Virus record (IMG/VR): IMGVR_UViG_3300037424_000917
Location: 1 to 40,206 of that record
Strand: one strand, 5' to 3'
Origin: a virus
Taxonomy: Duplodnaviria > Caudoviricetes
DNA: 40,206 nt
The translations under genes were made by a program, and so were the position numbers. Within the stretch, counting starts at the first letter, position 1. The number at the start of each line of letters is the position of its first letter. Under the pieces are notes generated by a model that saw nothing but the letters and a program-made list of their open reading frames with translations, was not told the origin of the DNA and made no database searches. This document shows, piece by piece, positions 3,110 through 39,201 of this stretch.

Positions 3110-3852
3110 AGATCAAAGACAGTGGATCAAGAAGCAAGTTCGAATCCGGGGCGCAGCGAGACTGCCAAGAGGGCAAGGGCCGTATGGATCTTCTGCCATT
3201 CATGGCACTCATGAATGTGGCCAGAGTGTATGAAGAGGGGGCGAAGAAATATCGTGCCCACAATTGGCGGCGTGGCATCCCTCTGTCCCGTTATGCCGAC
3301 TCTGGAATGCGTCATTTTGCAAAGTGGATGGCCGGTATGCGAGACGAGCCTCACCTGGACCAAGCGGTATGGAATTTGCTGTGTCTCATTGAAACCCAGG
3401 AGCTGATTCGGCAAGGCAAGCTTCCCGCCGAGCTGAACGATCTTCCGTACAACCCGCTGGATATCCTGGAAAATCCGCAAGATCTTCCTGATCTGGAACT
3501 TCCGTTCGAAGGCAGCGAGCTGGATGGCGACGTGCCGGGCAGTGGTGGTGAGTTGTATGTTGACGGCGAGAAGCTGTGCGACGTTGAAAGCTTTGCCATC
3601 GAATATACTAGCCCGGAGTGCCGCGAGACATATGATAGCACCGAGGAAGAGACGGAGCGTGGTACGCCATATAATGGTGAGTGCGCGGGCGGGTTCTGCG
3701 GTGCCCCGGTTACGTTTGAGATTCGTGACGCCGACAAATATCGGTCAGCGGAATTTGAGAAATACCGGGAGGCGATGCTTGACTGGGGACGTAAGGAACA
3801 CCAACGTGCTTGTGACGAAACGATGGCGGAGTGGGCCCGCACAAGGGGATAA
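3106..3852 (+). CDS. dATP/dGTP diphosphohydrolase-domain protein (DUF5664-like) with acidic C-terminal extension
   Basis: IKDSG.R..FESGAQRD...GKGR.DLLP...GAKKY..HNWRRG...RH...E.HL..A.WN signature; ATGA overlap with the primase stop. Confidence 0.8.
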   Translation: MKIKDSGSRSKFESGAQRDCQEGKGRMDLLPFMALMNVARVYEEGAKKYRAHNWRRGIPLSRYADSGMRHFAKWMAGMRDEPHLDQAVWNLLCLIETQELIRQGKLPAELNDLPYNPLDILENPQDLPDLELPFEGSELDGDVPGSGGELYVDGEKLCDVESFAIEYTSPECRETYDSTEEETERGTPYNGECAGGFCGAPVTFEIRDADKYRSAEFEKYREAMLDWGRKEHQRACDETMAEWARTRG

Positions 3853-4636: not shown

Positions 4637-5182
4637 CTATACTGGGTTGGTAACACCGAGCAAGTTTAGAGTCTTGCACGGAGAGAAGTCGGTCAGTGCC
4701 GCGCGGTGAATGTAGATCCCATATTGACGGAGCATCTTCTTGCACCGGGCTGTCAGATCTTTTTCTACTTCGCCGTTAACGACACCATTCAACATCTCTT
4801 CGTAGTTCATGGCCACTACTTCTTGTACGATGGCGGCTTGCGCGATATCCTTCACTGTGTCATCTGGCATCCAATTCAATTTTCCAATCGCTTGAACGAT
4901 GTCATTTATCGAATACACGACCACGCCACCAACAACAACAGATTTGTTATCCTTGGTTACTAGAGCCTGTGTCCTGGTGTTAACTGTTTGGCGCGCAACA
5001 ACGTGCAACTCAACTTCTGACAACAGGGGCCAGTACCATCGCACCCCCGTCTTTAACTCTACTGGTTCGCCGCGCCACCGCCATTTCACTCCAGCGTGTG
5101 TGGCACGTACGATGATACGACGGGGGAAGAATTGTAACAACGCGTCGAATATTTGTCCAAGCCAAGCGAATGCTGATTCCAT
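4637..5182 (-). CDS. SPFH (band 7/stomatin-like) domain protein
   Basis: IIV..H.GVK.R.G.P..L..G..WYWP...QT......Q.L.TKD....V.G.V.Y.I.D pattern; start 5182 (TAATG overlap) or 5188. Confidence 0.75.
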   Translation of the reverse strand: MESAFAWLGQIFDALLQFFPRRIIVRATHAGVKWRWRGEPVELKTGVRWYWPLLSEVELHVVARQTVNTRTQALVTKDNKSVVVGGVVVYSINDIVQAIGKLNWMPDDTVKDIAQAAIVQEVVAMNYEEMLNGVVNGEVEKDLTARCKKMLRQYGIYIHRAALTDFSPCKTLNLLGVTNPV

Positions 5183-5718
5183 TACCATAGTCCTTTTGGG
5201 CAGTGCTCTGTAGCCATTTTGATTTTGTTAATCACGGCAAAGGTGCTAGTGGAAACTTTACAGCCACACCCCCGGCACCTCTTCTTTTCCGCGTCATACC
5301 ACTCACAGGGCTTACAAAACTTTGTGTGAATGGCTTCAACCTCTTCATCGGAACGTACCGGCCTACCTTCTCCGATCCATCGTGTCAATGCCTCTTTGTA
5401 CAACCATAGCTGTAGAGAGAGGGCCGGGTAATCCGGCACGCCGCCGGGGGATTGCACTTCTGCAATGTCTGACTCCCCCAGCGGCGACTCTTTAATCATT
5501 TGCATGATTTCAGCGGCTTCCTTTACCATCTCTGGTGCCGGCTCCATATTTGGCTTCTTGCACTTTCTGTCAACATGCTCGACTCGATGAGTACACAGCA
5601 TGCAGGCTTGAGCATCTACTCCATGCCCGAAGGCTTCGCACTGGCGATTCATACACCGGTGCCGTTCGCTCCCGTCAGAGCGATTGACAATTGTTTGTCG
5701 TTTGTCGCAAGGTAACAT
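5182..5718 (-). CDS. Cys-rich hypothetical protein (DUF6171-like C-terminus)
   Basis: C-terminal CKPCEWY...RCRGCGC...K......CPKGLW; second Cys cluster at the N-terminus. Confidence 0.6.
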   Translation of the reverse strand: MLPCDKRQTIVNRSDGSERHRCMNRQCEAFGHGVDAQACMLCTHRVEHVDRKCKKPNMEPAPEMVKEAAEIMQMIKESPLGESDIAEVQSPGGVPDYPALSLQLWLYKEALTRWIGEGRPVRSDEEVEAIHTKFCKPCEWYDAEKKRCRGCGCKVSTSTFAVINKIKMATEHCPKGLW

Positions 5719-12778: not shown

Positions 12779-12792
12779 ATCAAATCTCCTAG

Positions 12793-12865
12793 AGCACCCG
12801 GAAGGACTTGAACCTTCAACCTGTTGATTACAAATCAACGGCTCTGCCAATTGAGCTACAGGTGC
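12793..12865 (-). tRNA. tRNA-Thr(UGU)
   Basis: GCACCTG/CGGGTGC acceptor stem, TAGCTCAATTGGCAGAGC D-arm, GTTGA-TTTGTAA-TCAAC anticodon arm, GAAGG-TTCAAGT-CCTTC T-arm; no encoded CCA. Confidence 0.92.
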
Positions 12866-19431: not shown

Positions 19432-19941
19432 TTAAGCAATCGTCGTTGTGACGGATTGTGTCAAGTTAAGCAGGTAGCCGTTGGCTTTGGCATACAAGTC
19501 TTCGGGCGGGTCCACGCCCTCTACTCGCTTGGCTATCACCATCCACGCCGTAGACTGTTCAAACTCTTCGATCGCAAGCAGCTCATATTTCTTGTGGCTG
19601 TATACGATCCAGTCATCCGAGTGGATATCAAATGTTGAGGGGACATCTGTCCTGTCGATAATGAATCGACGCTTCCCTGTGTCATAGCTGCCGCCCTGTA
19701 CAATCTTTTTGTTGGCGGATATCAGGGAGATTGTTTGGGTTACTTCCCTGGTAATGTTGGCTGGCAGCACAACAGCCCGTGGGATGTACACCGAGGTACC
19801 TGTGTACGATTTCGCTCCTGATGTGTAGTTTGTAGTCGTGGTGCCCAGGTGATAAATCGTGATCGGCCCGCCGTACTCTTTTTTCAGTTGGCGTATGCAC
19901 CGGCGGATGAATCGGATAAGATTGTAATTAGGTCTTGTCAT
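19432..19941 (-). CDS. Head closure/stopper-like protein
   Basis: YGGPITIY...TG/SG.K...DDWIVY..KKY pattern; position in the neck module. Confidence 0.55.
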   Translation of the reverse strand: MTRPNYNLIRFIRRCIRQLKKEYGGPITIYHLGTTTTNYTSGAKSYTGTSVYIPRAVVLPANITREVTQTISLISANKKIVQGGSYDTGKRRFIIDRTDVPSTFDIHSDDWIVYSHKKYELLAIEEFEQSTAWMVIAKRVEGVDPPEDLYAKANGYLLNLTQSVTTTIA

Positions 19942-20194
19942 TTTCGTCCACCTGAAGTACACGCCCGGAGTGGCAAGACTGAATCAATGTTGACACCCAC
20001 TTCATTTGCTGCGTGTTTGCCGCGATGACTGTGATGTTTTCTTTCACCAGGGCGGCGAGCGTCTCTTGCTGATACTCTTCCAGCTTTTCCACACGCTCTA
20101 CCAGCTTGTCTTCGCGCTTCCAGTCACGCCAGATGAAGAACAACACGATCCCAATGAGAGGGCCAAATTCCTTGAACAGGTCGATGTAGTCCAT
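19928..20194 (-). CDS. Holin-like single-TM protein (BhlA-like)
   Basis: EFGPLIGIVLFFIW TM segment followed by RDWKREDKL and a coiled coil. Confidence 0.55.
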   Translation of the reverse strand: MDYIDLFKEFGPLIGIVLFFIWRDWKREDKLVERVEKLEEYQQETLAALVKENITVIAANTQQMKWVSTLIQSCHSGRVLQVDENDKT

Positions 20195-27291: not shown

Positions 27292-29132
27292 TATGCACCT
27301 TTGTCCAGATTCTTGCCCTTACCACGAACGGGAGCTTTGCTGTCCGGGCTCGTAGTGGTGTCGGTGGCTTGTTCTCGCTCGGCTTCACCAGACTTCTGGT
27401 CAATTGCCAATTCAGGGACCCCGCGAGCGGCGGCATTCGCCATCCCGCCGGCCTCGGCGATTTTCACCTGCGACTGTGCCTCCATGATTTGCTTTGCTCG
27501 CAGAACGCGGTCTTCGCGCGCCTTAAGATACTCATCATCATTGAAGCCCATTGCTTCGGACCCCGTCTCGTCGCCGCATAAGCCGGCTTCCACGGCAGCC
27601 CGGATGATCTCTGGGTTCGATGTTGTATACCCGGCCTTGTCAATCTCGGCGAAGATCTTGTCGATCGTGGCGGTGTCTACCTTACCGGCCAACAGAGTTG
27701 TCACGATATTCTTGGACAGCTCTTTCTTTACCGTGTTGCCCGGCACCGTGTACATCAAATCAGAAAGTTCTTTCGCTTCCTTGATACGATCGTCGTCATT
27801 CTTCAAACTGTATCGGTCAGGGTACTTGATCGTCGCTATATTGCGCTGGGCCGGATCTCTGCTCTCGTAAGCCGCAAAATGTTCGGCGACACGCCTCTCC
27901 GCGCCCTCGATAACCATACCGATGTAGGAAAGTCCAGCCTCTAATCCTTGGTCGGACAGTTTCAGGGCCTCGGCCGAGGTGGCACGCTTCCCCATCTTGT
28001 TCTGAACCGCCAGATTCACGATCTTTCGGATATCATCCTCAAGTTTTTCCTGCAACTTGATGGATGCCATCAGGGGCTCGGAACTCGGATGGATGAAGCT
28101 TGGCGCGTCGGCTTTCAAGTCATATGTGCGGCCGTGCGTGATGCCGTTGCGCGCGTCGGAGCCCACACCGCTATTGTCGGTGGTTACGCCCGTACCATCA
28201 TCGTCAACAAATTTCTTCAAGTGGGCACCGACTGCCCGCATATCTTTCTGTTCGATAAAGAACGGGAAGTTTGCTTTCAACACATAGGACACGTCACTGG
28301 AACCAAGATTCAGCAGCGCCACTTGATGCTTATACACATCTTTCAGCAGGCTGCCGCCGATGTTCAGCATTGTGAACGGAATTCGCTCCAATTCGAGAGG
28401 AATAACCCCTTCGTTGTCAAACTTCGGGTTGCCATACAGGTCGATGGGGTTGTTCTTTTCATCAAACAGCTTCATCTTCACTTTGCGGTCGCTGGGATCA
28501 ACCCATAGCAAACGGTAGCGATTGTATCCGCCACTTGGCAGAACTACTCCGTGTGCAAATCCTTGGTTGTAGTCGACCCCTCGGTCACGGAGCAGGATCG
28601 CGGTGAAGTCACCGGGCTCTTCCGGCTTTGCAACTGCCCACGATAGAATGTCTTCCACTCGATAGAAGTAGCAATATGGACGCGCGTTACCTTCGTCAGC
28701 CATCGTGCGGAATCCGCTAAGCACGGGCATGTCGGTATACACCCCGACTCGACCCATAACGAGCAACTCGGTCAGCACGTCAATACCAAGGAAGCTCTGC
28801 ATCGACTGGCCCTTATTGTCGATGCCGCCAATCTCGCCGGCGCAGGCGCGCATATAGTTGGTACTGCCGCCCCTGCGGGTAACATCACGGAGCCGTTGGA
28901 AAATGGAGTTTCGAACGTCCGTCACTGCCGCCTTCGCATAGCTGGGGATGGGCGTGAAGAACTTGCGTGTCTTAAAATCTTCGTCAGTTTCTCTGGTGCT
29001 GAATTTCTTCAAATTCTTGTCGACAAACCGAGAGCCACCGTTGTAGCATTCCCTGTATTCCCACCAGTACATCTCGTCTTCCAGGAAGTCCGGGTGCCGT
29101 ACCGATGTGATGAACGTCTGCTCTGCTGACAT
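27291..29132 (-). CDS. Portal protein
   Basis: 613 aa directly after terL; RHPDF...R.CY.GG...L.K...E...DF..R N-terminus and SAEAL motif. Confidence 0.85.
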   Translation of the reverse strand: MSAEQTFITSVRHPDFLEDEMYWWEYRECYNGGSRFVDKNLKKFSTRETDEDFKTRKFFTPIPSYAKAAVTDVRNSIFQRLRDVTRRGGSTNYMRACAGEIGGIDNKGQSMQSFLGIDVLTELLVMGRVGVYTDMPVLSGFRTMADEGNARPYCYFYRVEDILSWAVAKPEEPGDFTAILLRDRGVDYNQGFAHGVVLPSGGYNRYRLLWVDPSDRKVKMKLFDEKNNPIDLYGNPKFDNEGVIPLELERIPFTMLNIGGSLLKDVYKHQVALLNLGSSDVSYVLKANFPFFIEQKDMRAVGAHLKKFVDDDGTGVTTDNSGVGSDARNGITHGRTYDLKADAPSFIHPSSEPLMASIKLQEKLEDDIRKIVNLAVQNKMGKRATSAEALKLSDQGLEAGLSYIGMVIEGAERRVAEHFAAYESRDPAQRNIATIKYPDRYSLKNDDDRIKEAKELSDLMYTVPGNTVKKELSKNIVTTLLAGKVDTATIDKIFAEIDKAGYTTSNPEIIRAAVEAGLCGDETGSEAMGFNDDEYLKAREDRVLRAKQIMEAQSQVKIAEAGGMANAAARGVPELAIDQKSGEAEREQATDTTTSPDSKAPVRGKGKNLDKGA

Positions 29133-30790
29133 TAGATTACCTTCTCGTCGATGTTGCCGCCGGAAACTACACCCGCCGCCATGGGCAACGCCAGTTCTGC
29201 ATAATTTAGTGCGTGTGCAAAGTGGTCTGGACCAGTGCTAAGGTAAATCGCCTTCGGATTACCCTGCGTGTCTTTCTCATATGTGCGAACAAGGGCCTTG
29301 ATGTGGTCCCTGAATTCCAGCGACAGGTCGGCTGGAAGAGCTATTCTATCGGAGTGGAAACGTCCCATCGAGGCGTCTAACCAGTTCGTCCGGTCCACTG
29401 TGATTACAGGAGCACCGCCATCCTCTTCTGCCAGCGATATTTCCTTACCTGTTACACCTTTTCGGTACCGACACAGGTAAACATATCCGGGAAAACGGCG
29501 AGCAAATCGCCGGGCGTCATTTATCTGCGGGTCGGCGTCGAGCACGCAGGCCTTTACCTGCCACTCCCGCATGAACGGGTCCAAGTTTCCAAAGTCATCC
29601 CCCGGAACTTTTCCTTCCCACAGGAGTTTGCCGAACATGGCGGCATTCAAGTCGCTTCCACCTTGCATCTGGAATTCCATGATGACGATGTGGAGCATTT
29701 TACCTTGGTCGACCCCCATCACGATCATTCGATCCGAGCCGAGGTTGGGCCGCTGTGTTTCCTTAAAATAGTTCCTGATGGCGTTGTCGATTTCGCTCTC
29801 AGTTACTTGCCCACCATCCGGGATGTAAGGCAAGCCTTGCTTGGAGTTGTGAAACTCCACCATGGCGGCTTCGTCACCCAGACCAAGAAAATAGGCTAAG
29901 GCCAATTCCGCCGGCGTGACCGTGTAGCTGTACAACTGATTGATGTAGAAGCTACGATGGTCTTCCTCTACGTTGACTGTTGGAAACCACTTAGCATACT
30001 TCAGGAAGTCGAGCTTTGCTTCATGCTCTAACTTTCCTTGACACTCTTTGCACTTCAGGAACGAGCGCTTAATATCCGGGTCCGTTACTGACTCGCCGCA
30101 AATCTCCAAGCAATCCGGGAAAATGAATTCTGTCTGCTTGCTGCACTTTGGACATTTGAAGTAATAATGCTCCTGCGTCCCTTGCAGAAACATCTTGTGA
30201 ATACCAAACTGTGGGATAGTCGGTGTGCTCAAGCTCAAGATGAGCTTATGCTTCTGCCCTGACAACCGCTCGAAGGCCAACTGAATGGCTCGCTGGTCCA
30301 TTTCGTCCGCTTCGTCCAGCACAAGCACGGACACGGGAATTGACTTTAGGTTGCTGTCGCCCCTTGATCCTCGAATGTACAAGTTCACGCCGCCGGCTTG
30401 CTTCAGCCCAACGGTATTCGTATCGGTGAACAGTTCCTTCAGATAGTCACTGTACATCAGTGCCGTGTTGAAACGGCTCTTGCTGAAGTCACTTGCATTG
30501 AGGGCCGTAGGCAGCACGTACAACACGTCGCGCTTCAGCACGTCCACTGTGAAGAGTGACCGGTTGATCGCTACTTCTGTCAATCCCAACTGGGCCGCTT
30601 TCATTATCGTGTTGCGGCTGGCAGTTGAGTCGTGTGGCTCCCGGCACCAGGGGTGATACTTGAAGCTGTAAGGCCCTTCAAATGGGGCACCCATGATTCT
30701 TCGGTGCTGCACCCACCTACTGCACAAGTTCAGCGTACGCGAAACCAGTCCAGATTGTAGTGTTGCACCGAAGTCATCGAGTAATCCCAT
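29132..30790 (-). CDS. terL: Terminase large subunit (lambda GpA-like)
   Basis: KAAQLGLTE Walker A, LVLDEAD Walker B, LSTPT, CPKC...CKEC zinc motif, GVDQG nuclease Asp, DHFAHA. Confidence 0.92.
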   Translation of the reverse strand: MGLLDDFGATLQSGLVSRTLNLCSRWVQHRRIMGAPFEGPYSFKYHPWCREPHDSTASRNTIMKAAQLGLTEVAINRSLFTVDVLKRDVLYVLPTALNASDFSKSRFNTALMYSDYLKELFTDTNTVGLKQAGGVNLYIRGSRGDSNLKSIPVSVLVLDEADEMDQRAIQLAFERLSGQKHKLILSLSTPTIPQFGIHKMFLQGTQEHYYFKCPKCSKQTEFIFPDCLEICGESVTDPDIKRSFLKCKECQGKLEHEAKLDFLKYAKWFPTVNVEEDHRSFYINQLYSYTVTPAELALAYFLGLGDEAAMVEFHNSKQGLPYIPDGGQVTESEIDNAIRNYFKETQRPNLGSDRMIVMGVDQGKMLHIVIMEFQMQGGSDLNAAMFGKLLWEGKVPGDDFGNLDPFMREWQVKACVLDADPQINDARRFARRFPGYVYLCRYRKGVTGKEISLAEEDGGAPVITVDRTNWLDASMGRFHSDRIALPADLSLEFRDHIKALVRTYEKDTQGNPKAIYLSTGPDHFAHALNYAELALPMAAGVVSGGNIDEKVI

Positions 30791-30797
30791 GCTTGTC

Positions 30798-31256
30798 TCA
30801 CAGTGTGAGTTCCTTGCCCATGTCGGCCGGCGGGTCCAGCTTAGCTACCTTGTCGTCCACAACAACCGGCGTGCGAGGAATAACTACATCCAATGTGGCC
30901 GGGGAGCTTAGCGGCTTATATTCGTTCTTGTCGACCTTACCGCGTTCCTTGGCTTCCTTTGCCTTGCGCTTGCCTTCCTTTTCTTGCTCGGCTTTTAGCT
31001 TGGCCGTTTCCTCTTCGATCTTGAGTTTCTTCAGGTGATCTTCCACCTGATTCATTCCCCACGGAGCCGACCACAGTCGAGACGCGAACACTTGCTTCGC
31101 CGTGCTTCGACCGCACTCGACGGCTTCGATCAGCACTTCAACTGTCCCGTCGGGTACGTCAAGCTCATTGCACTGACCAACGACGCCCACACAGCCGGAT
31201 GGTTTGCAGGTGTAGCGAACGTGAGGATGACGCGAGAACGGGTTTTCAACTTTCAT
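30798..31256 (-). CDS. Hypothetical protein
   Basis: 152 aa, charged C-terminal half, in operon. Confidence 0.55.
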   Translation of the reverse strand: MKVENPFSRHPHVRYTCKPSGCVGVVGQCNELDVPDGTVEVLIEAVECGRSTAKQVFASRLWSAPWGMNQVEDHLKKLKIEEETAKLKAEQEKEGKRKAKEAKERGKVDKNEYKPLSSPATLDVVIPRTPVVVDDKVAKLDPPADMGKELTL

Positions 31257-31557
31257 TGTGCCGGGGCTCCAGGAAAAGTGGGGCGATTGTCAGGATCATT
31301 TTCAGGATGGCTGGCCAGTTGGCCTTAAACCAGTCCCACAGATTGGCGAGCCACGTCTTTGTGTCGGCTCCGACCAGCCCGTCGGTTCGGTTCCACGGGT
31401 TGATTTGCGCCTCGATGCGATCGTTGAACTTTGCCAGCTCAACCGCATCATCGGACAGAACCAAGCATGCGTTGTATTCAACGCGGGACATATTGCCCTT
31501 GGCATACTCGCTCTTGGCTTGGGCCCGTAATTTTCTTCGCAGTTTTGGGAGTTTCAT
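31246..31557 (-). CDS. Small protein with C-terminal amphipathic/membrane helix
   Basis: Likely start MKLPKLRR at 31557 (GAAAGG upstream); ends LWDWFKANWPAILKMILTIAPLFL. Confidence 0.6.
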   Translation of the reverse strand: MKLPKLRRKLRAQAKSEYAKGNMSRVEYNACLVLSDDAVELAKFNDRIEAQINPWNRTDGLVGADTKTWLANLWDWFKANWPAILKMILTIAPLFLEPRHNES

Positions 31558-31567
31558 TTGTGGCCTT

Positions 31568-31849
31568 TCATTGACACTCTGTGTCTTCGTTTGCCCTGTC
31601 CAGGGCTTCATATACATGCAGGATGACAAGCATCCAGGCATTGGAGATTGCTACTACGAGGAAGTATGCCCGCCAATCCCACGCGAGGGAGGGTAATGCG
31701 AGCCAGAATCCCATACAAATCGGGCAGAACAGCAGTTGATACCCGAAGTAGTTCCTGATTGGTGCCGCGATGTTGCTCTCGCTAATTAGGCATCCCACCA
31801 CTCCAACAGCCGCTGAGGTATTGAACAGGGTCACCAGCCAATCAAACAT
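31568..31849 (-). CDS. DUF1360-like small membrane protein
   Basis: I.APIR...LL.CP.C.GFW motif between hydrophobic segments. Confidence 0.6.
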   Translation of the reverse strand: MFDWLVTLFNTSAAVGVVGCLISESNIAAPIRNYFGYQLLFCPICMGFWLALPSLAWDWRAYFLVVAISNAWMLVILHVYEALDRANEDTECQ

Positions 31850-32096
31850 CTTTTCTCGCGCCCACTTTCTCTTGCCACTCAGCCGGTAAGATCCCGTCTT
31901 GATTGCAACGATTGGCTTTTCGGCCCTCTAACACCACGTCTACAGTTGCGCCCTTCACCGTGTAGAAGATGGTGGCAGAGAACTCCAATTCGTCATTGGC
32001 ACCAAACTCGTTGGCATTATAGATTGAGTGCAGTTCATCATCCGCCTTGTAAAACAAAGCGACGATGGGTTTGTTGTCAGTGAACTTGATTTTCAT
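31842..32096 (-). CDS. Hypothetical protein
   Basis: 84 aa, overlapping start/stop with neighbours. Confidence 0.55.
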   Translation of the reverse strand: MKIKFTDNKPIVALFYKADDELHSIYNANEFGANDELEFSATIFYTVKGATVDVVLEGRKANRCNQDGILPAEWQEKVGARKDV

Positions 32097-33229
32097 TGTG
32101 ACACCGCCCAGCCGCGAGATACTAAATTCGCAATTGCTGTGTTAGCTGTGGCGCTTCTGTTGGCGGTCCCGCTGCCAGGGTTTGCTCCCGCGACCAGAGT
32201 TCCATTTGATGTGCCACAAGCCTCGGTATCAATTATGAGTGTGTCAATAGTCTCTTTTGACATCTTGCAGTTGTAGATGTTGACGTAGTTGATTGTGTTG
32301 TACGAAGGGTGAATGGTTAATGTGGTGAGATTTGTGTTGTGGTACACATGCACCATCCGGCATTTTGTCCACTCATTGTACGTGTTCAGTGTTGTCAAGT
32401 TAGCCGAGGATGTCATCACAAACTGGCGCAGTTCTGTCCACTCCGGGTGAGTCTCTACCGCATTCACATTTGCATAAAACAAATTGAATGTCGTCATCTT
32501 TGTCCAGGTGTTGCATGTCGTAATAGTGGTGAGACGTGCATATGCCGTGTCAAGTGTGACAAGGTTCGGCCACGCATGACCTTCAATGGCGTTCATGCTG
32601 TTGCAGGTGTGCAGGTTGAGTGTTACGAGACTCGGCCATTCTTGCGTATCGAGGTTTGGTAAATACTTGTTGCCCGCCAAGTTCAATATGGTCATGTTCG
32701 GCCACGCGTAGGTGTTGAACGTGGCCAAGTTGCAGTTAAACGCGTTGAAGTTATTGAGACTCGCCCAATTATGGGTCGGAATATACGTTAGGAGCGTGTT
32801 CCCGTGTATCTGAATGTTTGTTGTTGACGGCCAGTCGAACAGGGTGACGCTTGTGAGTTTATTGTTGTAAAGCAGAACTGTTTCTAAGTCTGCCCACTTT
32901 TTTGCGTTCTTAAACTTAACCGTGACAAGATTCTGAGTGGATGCGCCCAGTGCTCGCATAACACCGGGAAGTGTACACTTTATGGTTCCGCCGTTTGCGC
33001 TGTTGAATGTGACCGTTTGAAGCCAGCCGGGGGTTGTTGTTTTCTTTACCTCACCGGTATCAGCGTCAATCGTTTTGAGAACAAGAGCGGGTGTGCCCGG
33101 AAGAAAATTTCCACTAAGTGTAACACTGGCCTTGTTTGTCGTGAACACGAAGCCACCATTGTTTCCATCCTGTGAAACAAATCTCCGTCCGCGATCTTGT
33201 ATATCGGCCCTGCGAGGCATTCCACTCAT
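32093..33229 (-). CDS. Leucine-rich-repeat-like protein
   Basis: About 9-10 repeats of 21-23 aa (L..L.T..WP.L..L.L..N); C-terminal AIANLVSRGWAVS cap. Confidence 0.7.
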   Translation of the reverse strand: MSGMPRRADIQDRGRRFVSQDGNNGGFVFTTNKASVTLSGNFLPGTPALVLKTIDADTGEVKKTTTPGWLQTVTFNSANGGTIKCTLPGVMRALGASTQNLVTVKFKNAKKWADLETVLLYNNKLTSVTLFDWPSTTNIQIHGNTLLTYIPTHNWASLNNFNAFNCNLATFNTYAWPNMTILNLAGNKYLPNLDTQEWPSLVTLNLHTCNSMNAIEGHAWPNLVTLDTAYARLTTITTCNTWTKMTTFNLFYANVNAVETHPEWTELRQFVMTSSANLTTLNTYNEWTKCRMVHVYHNTNLTTLTIHPSYNTINYVNIYNCKMSKETIDTLIIDTEACGTSNGTLVAGANPGSGTANRSATANTAIANLVSRGWAVSQ

Positions 33230-33924: not shown

Positions 33925-34385
33925 AGCTTGATAGGCTGAGCTACCTCCAACTCCATTTCTGTATCGGACAGCGCGTGCCCAACTCTCGCCACGAATTCGC
34001 CCGCTGAATCTGGGGCTGTCGTAGTGAGTCGCCCGGCCACTGTAGCGGACAACCAGTAATCTGCACCCTCGGTCAGTCCGCCGGTGTCCCCTGTAACTGC
34101 GTCCCACTCGCCAGTGGTCGCTGGAAGTACACCGTCTGATACGATGTCTACCGGGTTACCATTTGCCGTTGTGACGGACACGAGGCCCGCTACTCTCACG
34201 GTGCTCTGCGAGTCGGCTTGAGCCTTAATTGCGTTGCCGCCGTTGACATACACGGGTGTACCGACGTTCAGCGTACTACCGGTGTTGTTGTTCTTTGTTA
34301 CGCCATTACTAAGGTCAATATGATCGCCGGGTTGTAGACGCTCAATCTGTCCGTTCGTAATTACCAGTGGAACCTTTTTAGACAT
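33921..34385 (-). CDS. Capsid decoration/cement-like protein (DUF2190-like)
   Basis: GTPVYV...KAQAD...AGLV...GLT.GA.YWLS...G.LTTTAP; paralog of 22658-23365. Confidence 0.6.
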   Translation of the reverse strand: MSKKVPLVITNGQIERLQPGDHIDLSNGVTKNNNTGSTLNVGTPVYVNGGNAIKAQADSQSTVRVAGLVSVTTANGNPVDIVSDGVLPATTGEWDAVTGDTGGLTEGADYWLSATVAGRLTTTAPDSAGEFVARVGHALSDTEMELEVAQPIKL

Positions 34386-34911
34386 TGCTCACCCATGTTT
34401 TTAGTGCCATCAAATTGTCCACATACTTGATAAGCTCTTTCGCTTTCCAGTATGTCTTTACTTGTATCTCTTCGCCGCGTCGGTACAGTATGATGGTTGG
34501 TACTGACTTCACGCTCTCTGGCGCTTTTTCTTCGTCAATGTCACGCACCGTGACTTTGAACCCGGCTTTCAGTAAAGCCGGTAGTTCTTTGGCTTGCCAT
34601 CGCTTGCAGGGTCCGCACCAGCTTGCAACCCAGGCTGTGATGGTGTAGTCTGCTTGGGTTTCGGGCTCTGGGGCGGGAGCTGGTGTGGGGGCTGGGACCG
34701 GCGGGAGGTTTTCAGGGCTGTAGGGTCCGATACCCTCGTCAGGTCCATCCAGTCGTTGATTATTTTGTACAACACGTCCAGCTTGGTCAGTGTGAAACCG
34801 CCTACCAAAATGTCCCGGAGCCAGCGCTTCAAGCGAAGCCACAGATTGAGAAGCTGTAACGATGGCAAACGCGACATAGATGAACCCTGCTGTTTGTAGT
34901 TTGTTTTTCAT
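34378..34911 (-). CDS. Secreted/membrane-anchored thioredoxin-fold protein
   Basis: N-terminal hydrophobic signal, Pro-rich linker, ASWCGPCK active site, V.SVPT cis-Pro loop. Confidence 0.8.
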   Translation of the reverse strand: MKNKLQTAGFIYVAFAIVTASQSVASLEALAPGHFGRRFHTDQAGRVVQNNQRLDGPDEGIGPYSPENLPPVPAPTPAPAPEPETQADYTITAWVASWCGPCKRWQAKELPALLKAGFKVTVRDIDEEKAPESVKSVPTIILYRRGEEIQVKTYWKAKELIKYVDNLMALKTWVSNV

Positions 34912-35570
34912 GTTCTGTCTCTGAGATACTTGGCCGCTCTTTCGAGCAGTTCTGGGTCATCTCTCAGTGAACCAATTGCTACATTGCAATGATGACACAA
35001 TAAGCCCCTGACTTTGCCCGTTATGTGATCGTGATCGACGAACAATCTTGATCCATTCACATTGGCTTCGCTACTGCAAATGGCACACTTTCCATGTTGT
35101 GAGGCAAGCAGGTTGTTGAAGTCGGCTGGAGTAAAACCATATTTTGCTAATTGATCTATAGCGCGACGATTGGTACAGCAGGGCTTGCACTCGCCTTTCA
35201 ACCCGTTAACCCCGCTCCGCGAATTGTAAAACTCTGAGTGGGCTTTCCACTGTTTACATTTGCAACAGCGTTGGTGTGTAGTAGTTGTTCTGCTGCACCC
35301 AGGCAGGAGTTCTCCATAATACTTGGGCAACGAGGCAGTTAACTCTTCAATCCTGGTTGTTCTCGGACCTTTATAATTTCCATCTCGTTTTAACTTTTGA
35401 CATTTCTTACAAACGGTATAAAGTCCCGCCGAGTCGCGTCTATTCACTGAGAAGTCACTATGCTGTAGCCAAGTAGCACAGCAGTTGCAACGCCGGTAAG
35501 TATCGGTAGTAACACAGTGAGCGTATTTATTTTTTGGCTGGCCATATTGAGCTATTTCGTCTGGTGTCAT
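34908..35570 (-). CDS. Endonuclease VII-family (putative homing) endonuclease 2
   Basis: Two zinc ribbons; Q.GKCAIC...VDHDH.TGKVRGLLC..CN.AIG...DD. Confidence 0.85.
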   Translation of the reverse strand: MTPDEIAQYGQPKNKYAHCVTTDTYRRCNCCATWLQHSDFSVNRRDSAGLYTVCKKCQKLKRDGNYKGPRTTRIEELTASLPKYYGELLPGCSRTTTTHQRCCKCKQWKAHSEFYNSRSGVNGLKGECKPCCTNRRAIDQLAKYGFTPADFNNLLASQHGKCAICSSEANVNGSRLFVDHDHITGKVRGLLCHHCNVAIGSLRDDPELLERAAKYLRDRT

Positions 35571-35571
35571 G

Positions 35572-36567
35572 CTATCTCAAGATATACGGAGGGATTGATA
35601 ATCTTGGATAACCCACGTAAGCACTGATGGCGAACGAATCGCCCTGTCGCAACATCACGTCAACAGTGTCCGCGTCAATCCAGAATGTCCCGTCGGCTTG
35701 ATCGCCGCGTGTCGGGCCAACAATCCAGTCTGAACCCCATGAGTTGAAGCACAGCGCGCCGGGGCGCTTGAACGCGTCATCATACGCAGCGAACAACATG
35801 GAGTGTCGCCATGGACGCCTCTTTCGTGTAAGGAATCCATCTTTGTCTCTCTTACATTGACCATCACCAAAGCCAATGTTCGAGCACACAATCACCGGGC
35901 TGCCGTTGGCGAGGCAGTCGCGAAGCTCGGCGAAAGAGCGGCAAATGGCCACTTTCTTCACCGGATGAAGCTTTGTGATTGGTTCGAGAGCGTCGGGACA
36001 CCCGGTGCGACCATATTCTACACCTTTTTGGGCATCATAGATGGTAAAATCAAAGCCGCCGGGGTACTTTTGCCTCAACAGCACGCCGTAGCGAACAAGC
36101 CACTCTGCACCCCAGTGCCCTGTCGAGCCTTTTCCTGAGCTGGTTCCGCCGATTTCTACGCGGCTGCCGCCATAGATCGGTTCGGTGGCGCACCACCCCG
36201 CCCATCTCTGCGCCTGCCTCTGGATAACAATCTGAACTGCCGTCAGCACGTCGACGCCACGACCGTAAGCCATGGACACGCAGTCGGCAGGCCCCTGGTC
36301 CAGCGGCACAAGCTTTCGACCGGTCACTCTCTCAAGAGCGAGGTGCAGAGAGACTACTTTTCCCTCTCCAGTGCCCTTAATTTCGCGATCTTGCTGCGAA
36401 ATGAAGGGGTGTTCGTGCCGGCGAATGAAATCTTCGAGACTTTTTGGGTCCGAATACCAGCCAAAACGATCTTCATCGTCGCGAGTCAGGGAAGCCTGGA
36501 CACAAGACGGGAGCAGCAAGCCGCTCGCCGTTGCTACCATTCCTTTTAGCATTGTTCGTCTGTCCAC
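35572..36567 (-). CDS. Papain-like (C1) cysteine protease with twin-arginine signal peptide
   Basis: MDRRTMLKG + hydrophobic stretch; DQG..DCVS (oxyanion Gln, catalytic Cys), HSM (His), NSWG..W (Asn); AGGAG RBS. Confidence 0.8.
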   Translation of the reverse strand: MDRRTMLKGMVATASGLLLPSCVQASLTRDDEDRFGWYSDPKSLEDFIRRHEHPFISQQDREIKGTGEGKVVSLHLALERVTGRKLVPLDQGPADCVSMAYGRGVDVLTAVQIVIQRQAQRWAGWCATEPIYGGSRVEIGGTSSGKGSTGHWGAEWLVRYGVLLRQKYPGGFDFTIYDAQKGVEYGRTGCPDALEPITKLHPVKKVAICRSFAELRDCLANGSPVIVCSNIGFGDGQCKRDKDGFLTRKRRPWRHSMLFAAYDDAFKRPGALCFNSWGSDWIVGPTRGDQADGTFWIDADTVDVMLRQGDSFAISAYVGYPRLSIPPYILR

Positions 36568-36577
36568 GGCGAATCTC

Positions 36578-37258
36578 CTAGCTGTTGCGCAGTCCCGCTG
36601 CGATGTCCTTCCACACCTGAGCGTGCTGCTCTGGTGTCATAAGTCGTCCATCTTGAGCCATTTTCAGCAGTTCCCCGCCGATTTTATCAAGCATCGGGGC
36701 CCACACTTCCAAAGATTCACCAAGAATTTCTTTATTCGCGGCGGCTGTGGCCTTAATCCAGTCCTCAGCGGTCGGTAACTCTGCCTCACGGGCTGCGATT
36801 TTCTCAAAACTGTCAGCTAATGCCAACTTCTGGTCACTGGGCAGGTTAAGTTCGGTCATCCAAAATGGGATCATACCTGCGAATGATCCGCTAGTTGGCG
36901 GCGGAAGGGGCGAGGCCACTTTCACAACGACGGTAACAACGTCAACTGTTCCGCCCTTGGCGCAGGACACGATAAAACGGTATTCCCCGTAGGTGCGAGC
37001 TGAAAAAACGGCCCGTGCTCCCGCATCGTACGTCAGGAAATCGGTGACAGAGTCGGGAACCACCAGCCACTTGAAACTATCAGCGACAGACCCTGAAACG
37101 TCCAGACGAACCAACTCACCAATTTTTGCGGTAGACGGAGCAACGAGCACGATTTTCGCCTGTTCCACACCGGGTGTGGACTCCTGCGCTATTGGTGCCA
37201 GAGTGGGCGTGGTAACAGCGATTAGAAAGGCAAGAGCGACGGCGATAATACGTTTCAT
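36578..37258 (-). CDS. Secreted protein with PKD/Ig-like and helical domains
   Basis: MKRIIAVALAFLIA signal; P.....GELVRLD.SGS....F.W...GEY.F PKD-like pattern. Confidence 0.65.
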   Translation of the reverse strand: MKRIIAVALAFLIAVTTPTLAPIAQESTPGVEQAKIVLVAPSTAKIGELVRLDVSGSVADSFKWLVVPDSVTDFLTYDAGARAVFSARTYGEYRFIVSCAKGGTVDVVTVVVKVASPLPPPTSGSFAGMIPFWMTELNLPSDQKLALADSFEKIAAREAELPTAEDWIKATAAANKEILGESLEVWAPMLDKIGGELLKMAQDGRLMTPEQHAQVWKDIAAGLRNS

Positions 37259-37261
37259 TTT

Positions 37262-37486
37262 TTAGTCCTGGAAAAAGCGGACACATGGTTCCCAGTCGCC
37301 GTCGTCTTCGCCAAGTGTCTGGGCGATGCGTGCCAGTACGGCTTCGTGTGCTTCCTTGCTACTGGTGAACTCAATCTCGGTTTGTGATTCTAACACTCGT
37401 CCACAGCGGCAGAGCCGGGAGAGCACGGTGATGTTTGGTTCTTCTGTCCAGCGATGTTCACGTCCACAGGCACAGAAGGCTTTCAT
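37262..37486 (-). CDS. Small zinc-ribbon-like protein
   Basis: CACG...CRCG. Confidence 0.55.
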   Translation of the reverse strand: MKAFCACGREHRWTEEPNITVLSRLCRCGRVLESQTEIEFTSSKEAHEAVLARIAQTLGEDDGDWEPCVRFFQD

Positions 37487-37490
37487 AACA

Positions 37491-37877
37491 TCACATTACT
37501 TTCATTGCGACGGAAGCGGCGGCGGCTTGGTGCGCTTCCCATTCTTTGTTTTCCTGCCAAAACTTGATCTTTTCGGTAACTTCGGCGAGTTCGGACACGA
37601 TCTCGTATTCCCCTTCTGTGAGATACTTGTCGATCAGACCCCGGAGAACTTGAACGTCGTCTTTCATAGCTTCAAAATTTCCCTTCGCTCGGAACTCGTT
37701 GATTACGTCTTGGATCGGTGTCACCCGGCCGGCGGCGATGTCGAGCATCGACTGTTGGATTGTTTGTGGATCAGGTGCAGTTGTGCTCATCTCGGCGATC
37801 CACGCGGCGTCGAGCTGCCGGCGCTGTTCATCCGTTATGATGAATTTGACTTGTACTGACTTTGGGTATTGTGCCAT
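37491..37877 (-). CDS. Hypothetical protein
   Basis: 128 aa helical ORF in the operon; no clear SD. Confidence 0.55.
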   Translation of the reverse strand: MAQYPKSVQVKFIITDEQRRQLDAAWIAEMSTTAPDPQTIQQSMLDIAAGRVTPIQDVINEFRAKGNFEAMKDDVQVLRGLIDKYLTEGEYEIVSELAEVTEKIKFWQENKEWEAHQAAAASVAMKVM

Positions 37878-37880
37878 AAT

Positions 37881-38091
37881 GAAAACCCGCCACTCGGTCG
37901 GCCTGCCCGGTGGCCAGCGGGTTTGGTCCCAGGATGCTATCCGGGGAGGGGTTCCGGGCTACCCGCCCATGATGACCGTCAGTGTAGGGACACGTGATCG
38001 TCTGCACGAGAGGGTCAGCGGGTGTGTTAATCAGGCGTCAGTTGCGGTGGCGACTGGCCGTTTAAGTCCTGCGCGCCACTGCCCGGACCCT
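37881..38091 (-). ncRNA. Candidate structured RNA downstream of tRNA-Pro
   Basis: Nested stems found by eye (see findings); no recognised family. Confidence 0.45.
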
Positions 38092-38102
38092 GGTATGTTA
38101 AG

Positions 38103-38176
38103 TCTGGGTGACAGGAATCGAACCTGCGACCTCATGCTCCCAAAGCACGCGCTCTGCCTAGCTGAGCTACACCCAG
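38103..38176 (-). tRNA. tRNA-Pro(UGG)
   Basis: CTGGGTG/CACCCAG acceptor stem, CGTGC-TTTGGGA-GCATG anticodon arm, GCAGG-TTCGATT-CCTGT T-arm; no encoded CCA. Confidence 0.92.
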
Positions 38177-38207
38177 TTGTTGAGTAGCCCAGCTTGGGGA
38201 GGCTGGA

Positions 38208-38399
38208 CTACGCAATGGGCTTGCTGGTGAACAGGCGCAGGACGATGTTCAGTCCGCCTTGCACGGCGACTAAAATTCCCACGAGGGCCGTGTTGTCAGC
38301 GATGACTTCGTGCCCGGCGACGTAACCAACTACGCCAGCGGCCACAACGAGGATGTTCAGCCAGACGGTCTTTGATGCGAGAACGGATTTGGTTTCCAT
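38208..38399 (-). CDS. Small two-TM holin-like protein
   Basis: K....SKTVWLN-TM1-TM2-NIVLRLFTSKPI; GGAG RBS. Confidence 0.6.
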   Translation of the reverse strand: METKSVLASKTVWLNILVVAAGVVGYVAGHEVIADNTALVGILVAVQGGLNIVLRLFTSKPIA

Positions 38400-38661: not shown

Positions 38662-39153
38662 TTACTGGTTTTCTTGCTTCGCGATCGCCTCCGCTATCTC
38701 TCCGCCGATTTTGGCCACGATCTCATCACGCTCTGGGACATCTGTCAAATTCTGGTCAATGATGTGAACGATCTTCTGTGCGAGGGACACCAGGGCTGAC
38801 TTGTTGAGCAGGTTGCCCAGCTTTACTTCCATGTTGTGGCAGCTTGACACGAGCTTCTCGATAGCCAGGAATGTGTCTTTCAGGCCCGACATGCCGGCGG
38901 CGAACTCCGCGTCCGATTCCATCATGTTGATTCGCTTCTCGACGATCGAGCGGAGCAAAGCAATCTCAACTTTCAAGGACTTGACTTCATCTGCGGCGGC
39001 GTGCCTTTGCGGTGAATCGCCAAGGATACGCTTCGAAATGAGGTACTGGTTGAGCTGTAGGCTGCCGGTGTGCGGGTTATGCTTCTCGCACCATCGGCTA
39101 CCGGGAATCGGCGGCTTCTGGCAGGCTCCTGAATCTGTCATCCAATCACACAT
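38662..39153 (-). CDS. Putative terminase small subunit
   Basis: First gene of the late operon; C...C...WC..H N-terminus and L..EIALLR helix; start ATG 39153 with GGAG. Confidence 0.6.
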   Translation of the reverse strand: MCDWMTDSGACQKPPIPGSRWCEKHNPHTGSLQLNQYLISKRILGDSPQRHAAADEVKSLKVEIALLRSIVEKRINMMESDAEFAAGMSGLKDTFLAIEKLVSSCHNMEVKLGNLLNKSALVSLAQKIVHIIDQNLTDVPERDEIVAKIGGEIAEAIAKQENQ

Positions 39154-39165
39154 AGATTTCTCTCC

Positions 39166-39201
39166 ACTACTATATCGCCTCATTTTTGTTGTTTGTCGCA
39201 A
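39166..39201 (-). promoter_or_regulatory. Conserved phage promoter/operator motif, copy 2 (upstream of terS)
   Basis: TTGCGACAA-ACAACA-AAAATGAGGCGATATAGTAGT on the - strand. Confidence 0.7.

What the first reader, a model, noticed from the sequence alone, without database searches (positions are those of the whole stretch)
34378..38399. Candidate non-peptidoglycan lysis system: holin-like protein + Tat-exported papain protease + secreted thioredoxin + secreted PKD-like protein
Seen: in the late operon lie a two-TM holin-like gene (38208-38399), a Sec-signal PKD-like protein (36578-37258), a C1 cysteine protease with intact Gln/Cys/His/Asn residues and a twin-arginine signal DRRTMLK (35572-36567), and a signal-bearing WCGPC thioredoxin (34378-34911). 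A second holin-like gene is at 19928-20194. I recognise no amidase, muramidase, endopeptidase endolysin or spanin anywhere in the 35-kb late operon. Established: Tat exports folded proteins, papain-family enzymes need a reduced cysteine, and some bacteria such as Planctomycetota have been described with cysteine-rich proteinaceous envelope layers. Inference: the phage exits by reducing and proteolysing a protein cell wall, with the thioredoxin activating the protease and/or breaking wall disulfides. The planctomycete host is a guess. Alternatives are superinfection exclusion by receptor cleavage or a lysogen fitness module.
Basis: partly seen in the sequence, partly recalled or inferred. Interest (0 to 1): 0.85.

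Follow-up and report, generated by a model that had tools for sequence, protein, structure and literature searches.

The report
Protease-based lysis cassette of planctomycete phages
This uncultured phage, like its near-complete relatives, shows no recognisable peptidoglycan-cutting enzyme and instead carries a conserved block of a holin-like gene, a papain-fold protease with an export signal, a partner predicted to bind it and a thioredoxin, which likely bursts planctomycete bacteria by cutting their cysteine-rich protein wall.

Summary
All four genes are real. The contig is only the structural ~40% of an 80-130 kb phage, so endolysin absence was tested in relatives: no muralytic Pfam family in 8 near-complete genomes (420 cluster representatives) or 4 prophage regions, and none over cut-off for 9 families in 30 records. 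The protease has a papain fold and an intact Gln/Cys/His/Asn set. Its C-terminal tail is predicted to dock on the PKD partner (0.75, best control 0.01), and the tail covaries with partner type. Homologues of the holin-like gene sit beside ordinary endolysins in 7 of 14 module-free loci. In one 401-genome Planctomycetota sample all 6 protease carriers were among the 26 genomes with YTV wall proteins; 5 of 10 carriers show no ftsW/rodA. Best reading (0.62): a holin-timed lysis cassette that attacks a protein wall. Lysis, substrate and this phage's own host are inferred, and the thioredoxin looks accessory. Not found in nine literature searches; this scan had noted the same module on other DNA at least 8 times.

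The parts
38662..39201 (-). Conserved zinc-finger/helical gene heading the late operon, possibly terminase small subunit (boundary marker, not a lysis gene)
   Evidence: Matches the family found upstream in relatives, E 1e-61; one relative has a weak phrog_10899 TerS match, E 0.006
38208..38399 (-). Holin-like protein, 63 aa, two hydrophobic segments
   Evidence: Present upstream of the protease in 56 of 56 loci that reach the TerS-like gene; family members match PHROG holins; homologues abut Amidase_2, Hydrolase_2 or M15 genes in 7 of 14 module-free loci
38102..38176 (-). tRNA-Pro (TGG) inside the block; passenger
   Evidence: ARAGORN
36578..37258 (-). Exported partner: hydrophobic leader, PKD/Ig-like domain (about 33-117), proline linker, helical domain (about 124-226) predicted to bind the protease tail
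   Evidence: Model pLDDT 89; nearest folds include collagenase PKD domains; upstream of the protease in 74 of 74 twin-arginine loci with enough flank; complex score 0.75 against best control 0.01
35572..36567 (-). Papain-fold (C1A-like) cysteine protease with twin-arginine leader; Gln91, Cys96, His255, Asn275; C-terminal docking tail 325-331
   Evidence: Alignment of 84; model pLDDT 91; Foldseek xylellain 3OIS E 7e-11; RR motif in 106 of 112 full-length close homologues; inteins at three catalytic motifs in relatives
34908..35570 (-). Free-standing endonuclease VII (likely homing endonuclease) inserted in the block; passenger
   Evidence: PF02945 E 4e-25; absent in L001; a gap over 500 bases between protease and thioredoxin in only 11 of 108 loci
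34378..34911 (-). Thioredoxin-fold protein with hydrophobic leader, proline linker and WCGPC
   Evidence: PF00085 E 2.5e-7; downstream in 70 of 72 twin-arginine loci; CxxC in 99 of 100
34569..34877 (-).
   Evidence: Family is embedded in the +1 frame in 62, a separate gene in 20, not found in 26 of 108 thioredoxin loci; third frame has stops in 62 of 62; in 20 close loci codon-position entropies 1.06/0.70/1.42 and 56% amino-acid identity in this frame against 26% in the thioredoxin frame; net charge +9
31568..31849 (-). Three-segment membrane protein, DUF1360-like, with a CPxC motif
   Evidence: PF07098 E 0.019 here, 7e-5 in a relative; downstream in 33 of 54 twin-arginine loci
31246..31557 (-). 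Basic protein ending in a Trp-rich amphipathic helix; candidate membrane-disrupting accessory (likely start at 31557; longest ORF runs to 31641)
   Evidence: Downstream in 53 of 54 twin-arginine loci; no family in Pfam, PHROGs or the Atlas
29132..30790 (-). Terminase large subunit, downstream boundary of the block
   Evidence: PF05876, phrog_675; within 7 kb of the protease in 54 of 54 twin-arginine loci
19928..20194 (-). Conserved one-segment membrane protein with coiled coil among head-completion genes; holin role unproven
   Evidence: Conserved in relatives; no holin family match

Best explanation
The block is likely the phage's lysis cassette, in which a papain-fold cysteine protease takes the place of the endolysin and probably cuts the cysteine-rich protein wall of a planctomycete host. 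Shown: gene content, order, conservation, folds as predicted models, absence of recognised muralytic families in relatives, and host association of integrated relatives. Inferred sequence of events: late in infection the folded protease would leave the cytoplasm by Tat and the PKD partner by Sec; in the periplasm the protease's last seven residues are predicted to dock in the partner's helical domain, giving a two-gene enzyme whose PKD domain would grip the wall protein; the thioredoxin would keep Cys96 reduced and may open wall disulfides; the holin-like protein would set the timing, and in relatives whose protease has no leader it would also be the exit route; the nested cationic peptide and the 31246-31557 protein would disrupt the outer membrane in place of spanins.
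For: Slot: holin-like gene upstream in 56 of 56 loci reaching the TerS-like gene, TerL within 7 kb in 54 of 54; in unrelated prophages the pair sits after the tail genes or before the packaging genes. Replacement: homologues of the holin-like gene abut Amidase_2, Hydrolase_2 or M15 genes in 7 of 14 distinct module-free loci. Absence: no muralytic or wall-binding Pfam family among 420 cluster representatives from 8 near-complete genomes or 131 proteins of four prophage regions; 0 of 30 records over cut-off for nine families in six frames. Host: 15 of 25 GTDB loci are labelled Planctomycetota; four copies lie in prophage regions of three such genomes; in one 401-genome phylum sample 5 of 25 YTV-positive and 0 of 375 YTV-negative genomes carry the protease, centre genome left out (Fisher p 6e-7); 10 of 10 carriers tested have YTV proteins and 5 of 10 show no ftsW/rodA, including G031 with two such prophage regions. 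PMC8567305 (passages) reports YTV proteins as the top wall proteins, confined to the lineage where peptidoglycan genes are mostly absent. Complex: score 0.75, best of 3 controls 0.01, runs agree in at least 59% of contacts, partner pLDDT at least 82; the mark was reached by 116 of 157 solved complexes and 2 of 215 mismatched pairs. The tail covaries with partner type: 12 of 12 loci with the c23 partner end RI[IY], 7 of 8 with the c68 partner carry LxHxxW, 79 of 97 with the helical partner end in an aromatic-hydrophobic motif, and none of 14 loci with other or no partner fits these. N-termini come as twin-arginine (72), none (50) or membrane anchor (9) among 136 rows, 5 cut (the rule misfiled a few rows), the range known for endolysins (recalled). 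Importance: inteins interrupt three catalytic motifs.
Against: No lysis, export, binding or cleavage was measured. The host of the window's own twin-arginine clade is not shown: its only GTDB locus is a 10.8-kb contig in an Anaerolinea MAG, and source names of close homologues include Planctomycetota (P0038, P0265) but also a Deltaproteobacteria MAG (P0201). Five of 10 carrier genomes do have ftsW/rodA and four have a strong murG match, so peptidoglycan is not excluded as substrate there. The YTV association is not independent of kinship or genome size. 445 of 865 cluster representatives (under 110 aa) were not scanned, six of the eight genomes are one phage group, and I have no proper control for how often uncultured phages lack a recognisable endolysin; 7 of 14 module-free holin loci also showed none nearby. 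One genome has a weak permuted papain-like amidase match (PF05708, below cut-off) and two have amidoligase genes. The thioredoxin is leaderless in 21 of 100 loci and absent in some. Orphan homologues in Mucilaginibacter, Balneolaceae and Flexithrix records and two planctomycete copies without phage genes nearby show the protease can be kept outside a phage.
Confidence: 0.62

Rival explanations
1. It is a lysis cassette, but the protease cuts peptidoglycan peptides or the lipoprotein links between wall and outer membrane, so it is an unrecognised endolysin family and not a protein-wall protease.
For: Other papain-like folds (NlpC/P60, CHAP, C39, PeiW/PeiP) cut wall peptides (recalled). Peptidoglycan components were detected in several planctomycetes (PMC12673574, passages). 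Five of 10 carriers have ftsW/rodA. One homologue has a weak C39 match, E 0.009.
Against: Best fold matches are xylellain and papain/cathepsin proteases, not NlpC/P60 or CHAP. None of 31 longer forms carries a peptidoglycan-binding domain; all are intein forms. PG_binding_1 in 0 of 30 records. Five carriers, including G031, show no ftsW/rodA and no murG over cut-off. The partner's domain resembles PKD domains of collagenases.
Confidence: 0.17
2. The block acts at the envelope without lysis: it destroys the phage receptor (superinfection exclusion), remodels the surface, or helps non-lytic release.
For: Exported protease and thioredoxin fit any periplasmic job. A planctomycete phage released without lysis has been reported (PMC10945688, passages). 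Orphan and non-prophage copies exist in bacterial chromosomes.
Against: Fixed place in the late operon next to a holin-like gene; no integrase family among the scanned proteins of the six complete relatives, so a lysogen-fitness role is unlikely for this group; near-invariant presence and inteins at catalytic motifs suit an essential gene; this reading leaves the phages with no recognised way out.
Confidence: 0.13
3. The protease matures virion proteins and the thioredoxin helps fold cysteine-containing tail parts.
For: The block is co-oriented with packaging and decoration genes; several tail proteins here are cysteine-rich.
Against: Export leaders on three members would remove them from the assembly compartment; the window has a P22-type coat with scaffold; three prophage regions with the module also encode their own head maturation protease; the module occurs with unrelated head and tail types.
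Confidence: 0.05

Closest known systems
Holin-endolysin-spanin lysis cassettes of tailed phages (lambda S-R-Rz/Rz1 type; recalled)
   Same: Holin-like gene, position next to packaging genes or after tail genes, an enzyme with variable export route, and a gene nested in the +1 frame of its neighbour.
   Different: No muralytic family; the enzyme is a C1A-like protease; the nested product has no cysteine and so cannot be an Rz1-type lipoprotein; a thioredoxin and a separate docking partner are included.
Xylellain (Xylella fastidiosa, PDB 3OIS) and papain/cathepsins, MEROPS C1A
   Same: Fold (Foldseek E 7e-11, TM 0.60/0.72) and Gln/Cys/His/Asn catalytic set.
   Different: 18% identity; no PF00112 match for the window protein (a prophage homologue passes the cut-off); QxxxDCV instead of the papain QxxCxSCW motif (papain motif recalled); twin-arginine leader and a C-terminal docking tail; phage-encoded.
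PlyC of streptococcal phage C1 (PMC10604209, abstract)
   Same: A lysin holoenzyme made of a catalytic subunit and a separate wall-binding subunit.
   Different: PlyC cuts peptidoglycan and uses a PlyCB octamer; here a 1:1 tail-in-groove contact with a PKD-helical protein is only predicted, and no sequence or fold relation was seen.
Pseudomurein endoisopeptidases PeiW/PeiP of methanogen viruses, and mycobacteriophage LysB (recalled)
   Same: Phage lysis enzymes adapted to a wall layer other than murein; PeiW/PeiP are cysteine enzymes.
   Different: Their substrates are glycan-peptide or lipid-glycan polymers, not a disulfide-rich protein layer; different families.
Clostridial collagenases ColG/ColH PKD domains (PDB 2Y72, 4JGU, 4U7K)
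   Same: Fold of the partner's N-terminal domain, there attached to a protease of insoluble protein.
   Different: 13-15% identity; Ig-like folds are common and many unrelated Ig domains score alike; here the domain is on a separate polypeptide.

Membership tests
Papain-like cysteine proteases (MEROPS C1A) | Papain fold | tested here: met
   Model pLDDT 91, pTM 0.87; 254 PDB matches at E<=0.001, all listed rows cysteine proteases of this fold, led by xylellain
Papain-like cysteine proteases (MEROPS C1A) | Gln, Cys, His, Asn catalytic set in order | tested here: met
   Q91, C96, H255 invariant, N275 >=90% in 84 sequences; His/Asn region aligns to cathepsin K. Geometry in the model was not measured.
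Papain-like cysteine proteases (MEROPS C1A) | Pfam PF00112 over cut-off | tested here: inconclusive
   No match for the window protein; a prophage homologue scores 22.3 against cut-off 20.7; Atlas clusters carry PF00112 in 20-44% of members
Papain-like cysteine proteases (MEROPS C1A) | Proteolytic activity | not testable with these tools
   Needs an assay
Tat substrates | Twin-arginine motif near the N-terminus followed by a moderately hydrophobic stretch | tested here: met
   DRRTMLK in the window; RR motif in 106 of 112 close homologues of 320 aa or more
Tat substrates | TIGR01409 or TatP/SignalP call; export in vivo | tested here: inconclusive
   No TIGR01409 match for the window protein; one relative 16.4 bits against cut-off 16.7. 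No signal predictor was available.
Canonical endolysins (amidase, muramidase, transglycosylase, M15/M23, NlpC/P60, CHAP) | Muralytic catalytic domain or peptidoglycan-binding domain | tested here: not met
   None on the protease, partner or longer forms; fold is C1A-like
Holins | Small membrane protein beside a lysin, holin family match (38208-38399) | tested here: met
   Two hydrophobic segments; PHROG holin matches for family members L134 (E 2e-4) and L262 (E 8e-6), none for the window copy itself; beside endolysins in 7 of 14 module-free loci
Holins | Timed membrane lesion | not testable with these tools
   Needs expression and endolysin-complementation tests
Holins | Holin family match for the second candidate (19928-20194) | tested here: inconclusive
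   One hydrophobic segment, no family match in four members
Two-component spanins (Rz/Rz1) | Embedded +1-frame gene encoding an outer-membrane lipoprotein with lipobox cysteine | tested here: not met
   The nested gene is in the +1 frame but its product has no cysteine
Thioredoxins | Thioredoxin fold family match with CxxC | tested here: met
   PF00085 over cut-off; CxxC in 99 of 100, WCxxC in 69, WCGPC in 16
Thioredoxins | Reducing (not oxidising or isomerising) activity in the periplasm | not testable with these tools
   Needs redox assay

The most novel reading that the evidence does not exclude
Phages of YTV-walled planctomycetes have abandoned muralytic lysis altogether and use a reductive-proteolytic system: a two-gene protease holoenzyme assembled in the periplasm by tail docking, a thioredoxin that opens wall disulfides, and overprinted cationic peptides that replace spanins. 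The phages would then be genetic evidence that protein, not peptidoglycan, bears the load in these cells.
Probability: 0.5. Interest if true: 0.9.

Novelty: new variant of a known kind. Interest (0 to 1): 0.78.

Why it matters
Tailed phages of bacteria are assumed to need a peptidoglycan hydrolase to get out. A widespread cassette (about 1,100 matching stretches estimated in IMG/VR) built on a general-protease fold would be a new lysis chemistry. It also bears on a long dispute about whether the planctomycete wall is protein or peptidoglycan (PMC12673574, PMC8567305): the phage enzyme names the load-bearing polymer, and its cleavage products can be read directly. The module may also serve as a marker for assigning uncultured phages to planctomycete hosts, and the enzyme as a tool for opening these hard-to-lyse cells.

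Tried and rejected
Sequence search of solved structures with the single protein found nothing; the profile gave only weak cathepsin matches. tblastn against 50,697 GenBank phage records found no match, so no cultured phage with this protease was identified. phrog_2252 'endolysin' on 3106-3852 was rejected as a nucleotide diphosphohydrolase domain. Long 'protease cluster' ORFs in L023 and L039 were rejected: they are RNA-polymerase-like proteins joined through inteins. Profile comparison did not link the c23 or c68 partners to the window partner's domains (probability 0.1-7%), so they are treated as separate partner types. The helical domain was not folded alone, so its fold is barely tested. 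The Atlas gave no family for 31246-31557. Promoter and terminator scans were at chance level. The PF05838 six-frame search had no positive control and shows nothing; a 30-position PF13539 match in G012 is below cut-off. No RNA holder listed. No terminal repeat at the contig ends for the lengths tried. The protease tree (FastTree, 97 rows; 34 twin-arginine rows, 5 cut rows and all intein or split forms left out) puts the twin-arginine group on one branch with support 93 but cannot name its host. Mahajan et al. 2020 could not be read; its results are taken second-hand from PMC8567305 and PMC12673574. No supplements were read; tables of planctomycete virus genes in supplements could bear on novelty.

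Full report
Observation. The window is the whole held record: a tailed phage fragment with gpA-type TerL, portal, P22-type coat, scaffold and tape measure on the minus strand. They lie between a conserved TerS-like gene (38662-39201) and TerL (29132-30790). An endonuclease VII gene (34908-35570) sits between protease and thioredoxin; it is absent from the closest relative. Six relatives of 82-128 kb are syntenic with the whole window, which covers only their structural end. The absence of an endolysin therefore had to be tested in relatives.

The protease. It has 343 homologues at E<=0.001 in the word-indexed search. Gln91, Cys96 and His255 are invariant and Asn275 nearly so in 84 aligned sequences. 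The model (pLDDT 91) matches xylellain and papain/cathepsin structures. A twin-arginine motif is present in 106 of 112 close full-length homologues. More distant members have no leader or a membrane anchor (72 RR, 50 none, 9 anchor, 5 cut among 136 rows by a rough rule that misfiled a few). All 31 longer forms are intein forms (30 by Pfam, one by inspection), inserted just before the catalytic Cys, just after the catalytic His, or after NSWG; none adds a wall-binding domain. Atlas clusters nearest to it are 84-100% viral.

The module. Among 166 non-redundant loci of 186, the twin-arginine loci with enough flank have the PKD partner upstream in 74 of 74, a thioredoxin downstream in 70 of 72, the amphipathic-helix gene in 53 of 54, the DUF1360-like gene in 33 of 54 and TerL within 7 kb in 54 of 54. 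Of the other loci, 50 of 60 have one of three exported partner types upstream and 23 of 63 a thioredoxin. The holin-like gene is upstream in 56 of 56 loci that reach the TerS-like gene. The partner folds as a PKD/Ig domain plus a helical domain. Co-folding places protease residues 325-331 in a groove of the helical domain, score 0.75 against a best control of 0.01, with at least 59% contact agreement and partner pLDDT at least 82; the mark was reached by 116 of 157 solved complexes and 2 of 215 mismatches. This supports binding and does not show it. The tail sequence changes with partner type (12 of 12, 7 of 8 and 79 of 97 fit type-specific motifs; 0 of 14 with other or no partner); the motifs were defined after looking, and related loci share both traits by descent.

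A nested gene. ORF 34569-34877 lies in the +1 frame of the thioredoxin gene. Its family is embedded in that frame in 62, a separate gene before a short thioredoxin in 20, and not found in 26 of 108 thioredoxin loci; the third frame is closed in 62 of 62. In 20 close loci the nested frame shows the codon signature of a coding gene and is better conserved than the thioredoxin leader region (56% against 26%). The product is cationic and amphipathic and has no cysteine. Membrane disruption is my inference from composition; no family matched.

No canonical endolysin in relatives. Eight near-complete records (six syntenic relatives, two unrelated phages) gave 1,207 called genes and 904 clusters; of 865 clusters not matching window proteins, the 420 representatives of 110 aa or more were scanned against Pfam. 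No amidase, lysozyme, transglycosylase, M15, M23, NlpC/P60, CHAP or peptidoglycan-binding family appeared. Peptidase-like hits were a weak C92 below cut-off, an M28 and a trypsin-like protein; two records have amidoligase genes. Six-frame searches of 30 records (10 at least 90% complete) found nothing over cut-off for PF01510, PF01464, PF00959, PF08291, PF01520, PF13539, PF01471, PF07486 and PF05838 (the last had no positive control). 131 of 156 listed proteins from four prophage regions (flanking host genes and some shadow ORFs dropped) also showed none. By contrast, homologues of the holin-like gene in module-free phages abut Amidase_2, Hydrolase_2 or M15 genes in 7 of 14 distinct loci (L260, L261, L268, L271, L277, L278, L279; L269 and L270 were not inspected separately, L267 did not match the family), and two family members match PHROG holins.

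Hosts. Of 25 GTDB loci, 15 are labelled Planctomycetota, 14 of them to lineages of class Planctomycetia and none to Phycisphaerae (class assignment from my knowledge). Four copies lie in prophage regions of G031 (two), G032 and G033, after tail genes or before packaging genes, with a partner upstream; two further copies have no phage genes nearby. Four Bacteroidota/Balneolota copies examined are orphans among housekeeping genes. In one evenly drawn sample of the phylum, 6 of 401 genomes carry the protease and 26 of 401 carry YTV proteins; all six are among the 26 (5 of 25 against 0 of 375 without the centre genome, p 6e-7; not corrected for kinship or genome size). All 10 carriers tested have YTV proteins; five show no ftsW/rodA, and murG passes cut-off in three and nearly in a fourth; most are MAGs, so misses are soft. 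[quoted passage not shown] The window's own clade has no integrated member. Its labels are mixed (Planctomycetota, Anaerolinea, Deltaproteobacteria), and the two contigs whose lengths are known for P0038 and L161 are short, which suggests binned phage contigs. Its host is inferred from the shared module.

Mechanism and rivals. The most economical reading is a lysis cassette in which a periplasmic two-gene protease replaces the endolysin and cuts the protein wall (0.62). A hidden peptidoglycan or lipoprotein-link peptidase (0.17), a non-lytic envelope function (0.13) and virion maturation (0.05) remain. The thioredoxin is best seen as an accessory: CxxC is kept in 99 of 100, but 22 are short forms, 21 without a leader, and some loci lack it.

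Novelty. Nine literature searches (listings and abstract starts, with passages read in four papers and one abstract) found no description of this cassette, of a C1 protease as a phage lysin, or of a Tat-exported lysin; the library lacks most subscription papers and no supplements were read. This scan's own notes describe the same module on at least eight other genomes, seen after my analysis was largely done; they are not independent evidence. A search of those notes for the nested gene found nothing. I class the finding as a new variant of holin-based lysis, with a real chance that its wall-cutting arm is a new kind.

Noticed in passing
P0159-P0189, P0071; loci L007, L008, L027, L048, L051, L092, L096, L098, L132, L135, L140, L142, L152, L158: Inteins at three catalytic motifs of the protease family, two proteins with two inteins; an intein inside a twin-arginine substrate would have to splice before export.
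   Followed up: partly
window 12792-12865 and 38102-38176: tRNA-Thr (TGT) among tail genes and tRNA-Pro (TGG) inside the block; not used for host prediction.
   Followed up: no
L059:1093-1689 and related marine loci: A membrane protein with a PAS domain two to three genes upstream of the leaderless protease; possible lysis-timing sensor.
   Followed up: no
L233:9160-10347: In one G031 prophage region an exported trypsin-like protease follows the papain-fold protease; trypsin-like genes also lie near it in L049 and probably L045.
   Followed up: no
L174:2078-2899, L246:11998-12471, L045:9493-10026: A lipid desaturase-domain membrane gene recurs next to the protease in several planctomycete-linked loci.
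   Followed up: no
L262-L265, L273, L275: Other phages with the same holin-like family but no recognisable lysin nearby and no papain module in the stretch held; possibly further non-muralytic systems.
   Followed up: no
L023:15705-19304, L039:15361-19830: Large phages with the module also encode RNA-polymerase-beta-like proteins, one with an intein-like insert.
   Followed up: no
window 4637-5718: An SPFH/band 7 gene and a cysteine-rich gene close the tail operon and are conserved in five of six complete relatives each.
   Followed up: no
window 32093-33229: Leucine-rich-repeat protein inserted in the block in a few relatives, likely a virion decoration or receptor-binding passenger.
   Followed up: no
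L192:8789-9328: A PEP-CTERM protein in complete relative G006, consistent with a diderm host.
   Followed up: no
L162, L163, L164, L170: Partner-less chromosomal homologues in Bacteroidota and Balneolota records form one branch and end in a different, helix-like tail.
   Followed up: partly
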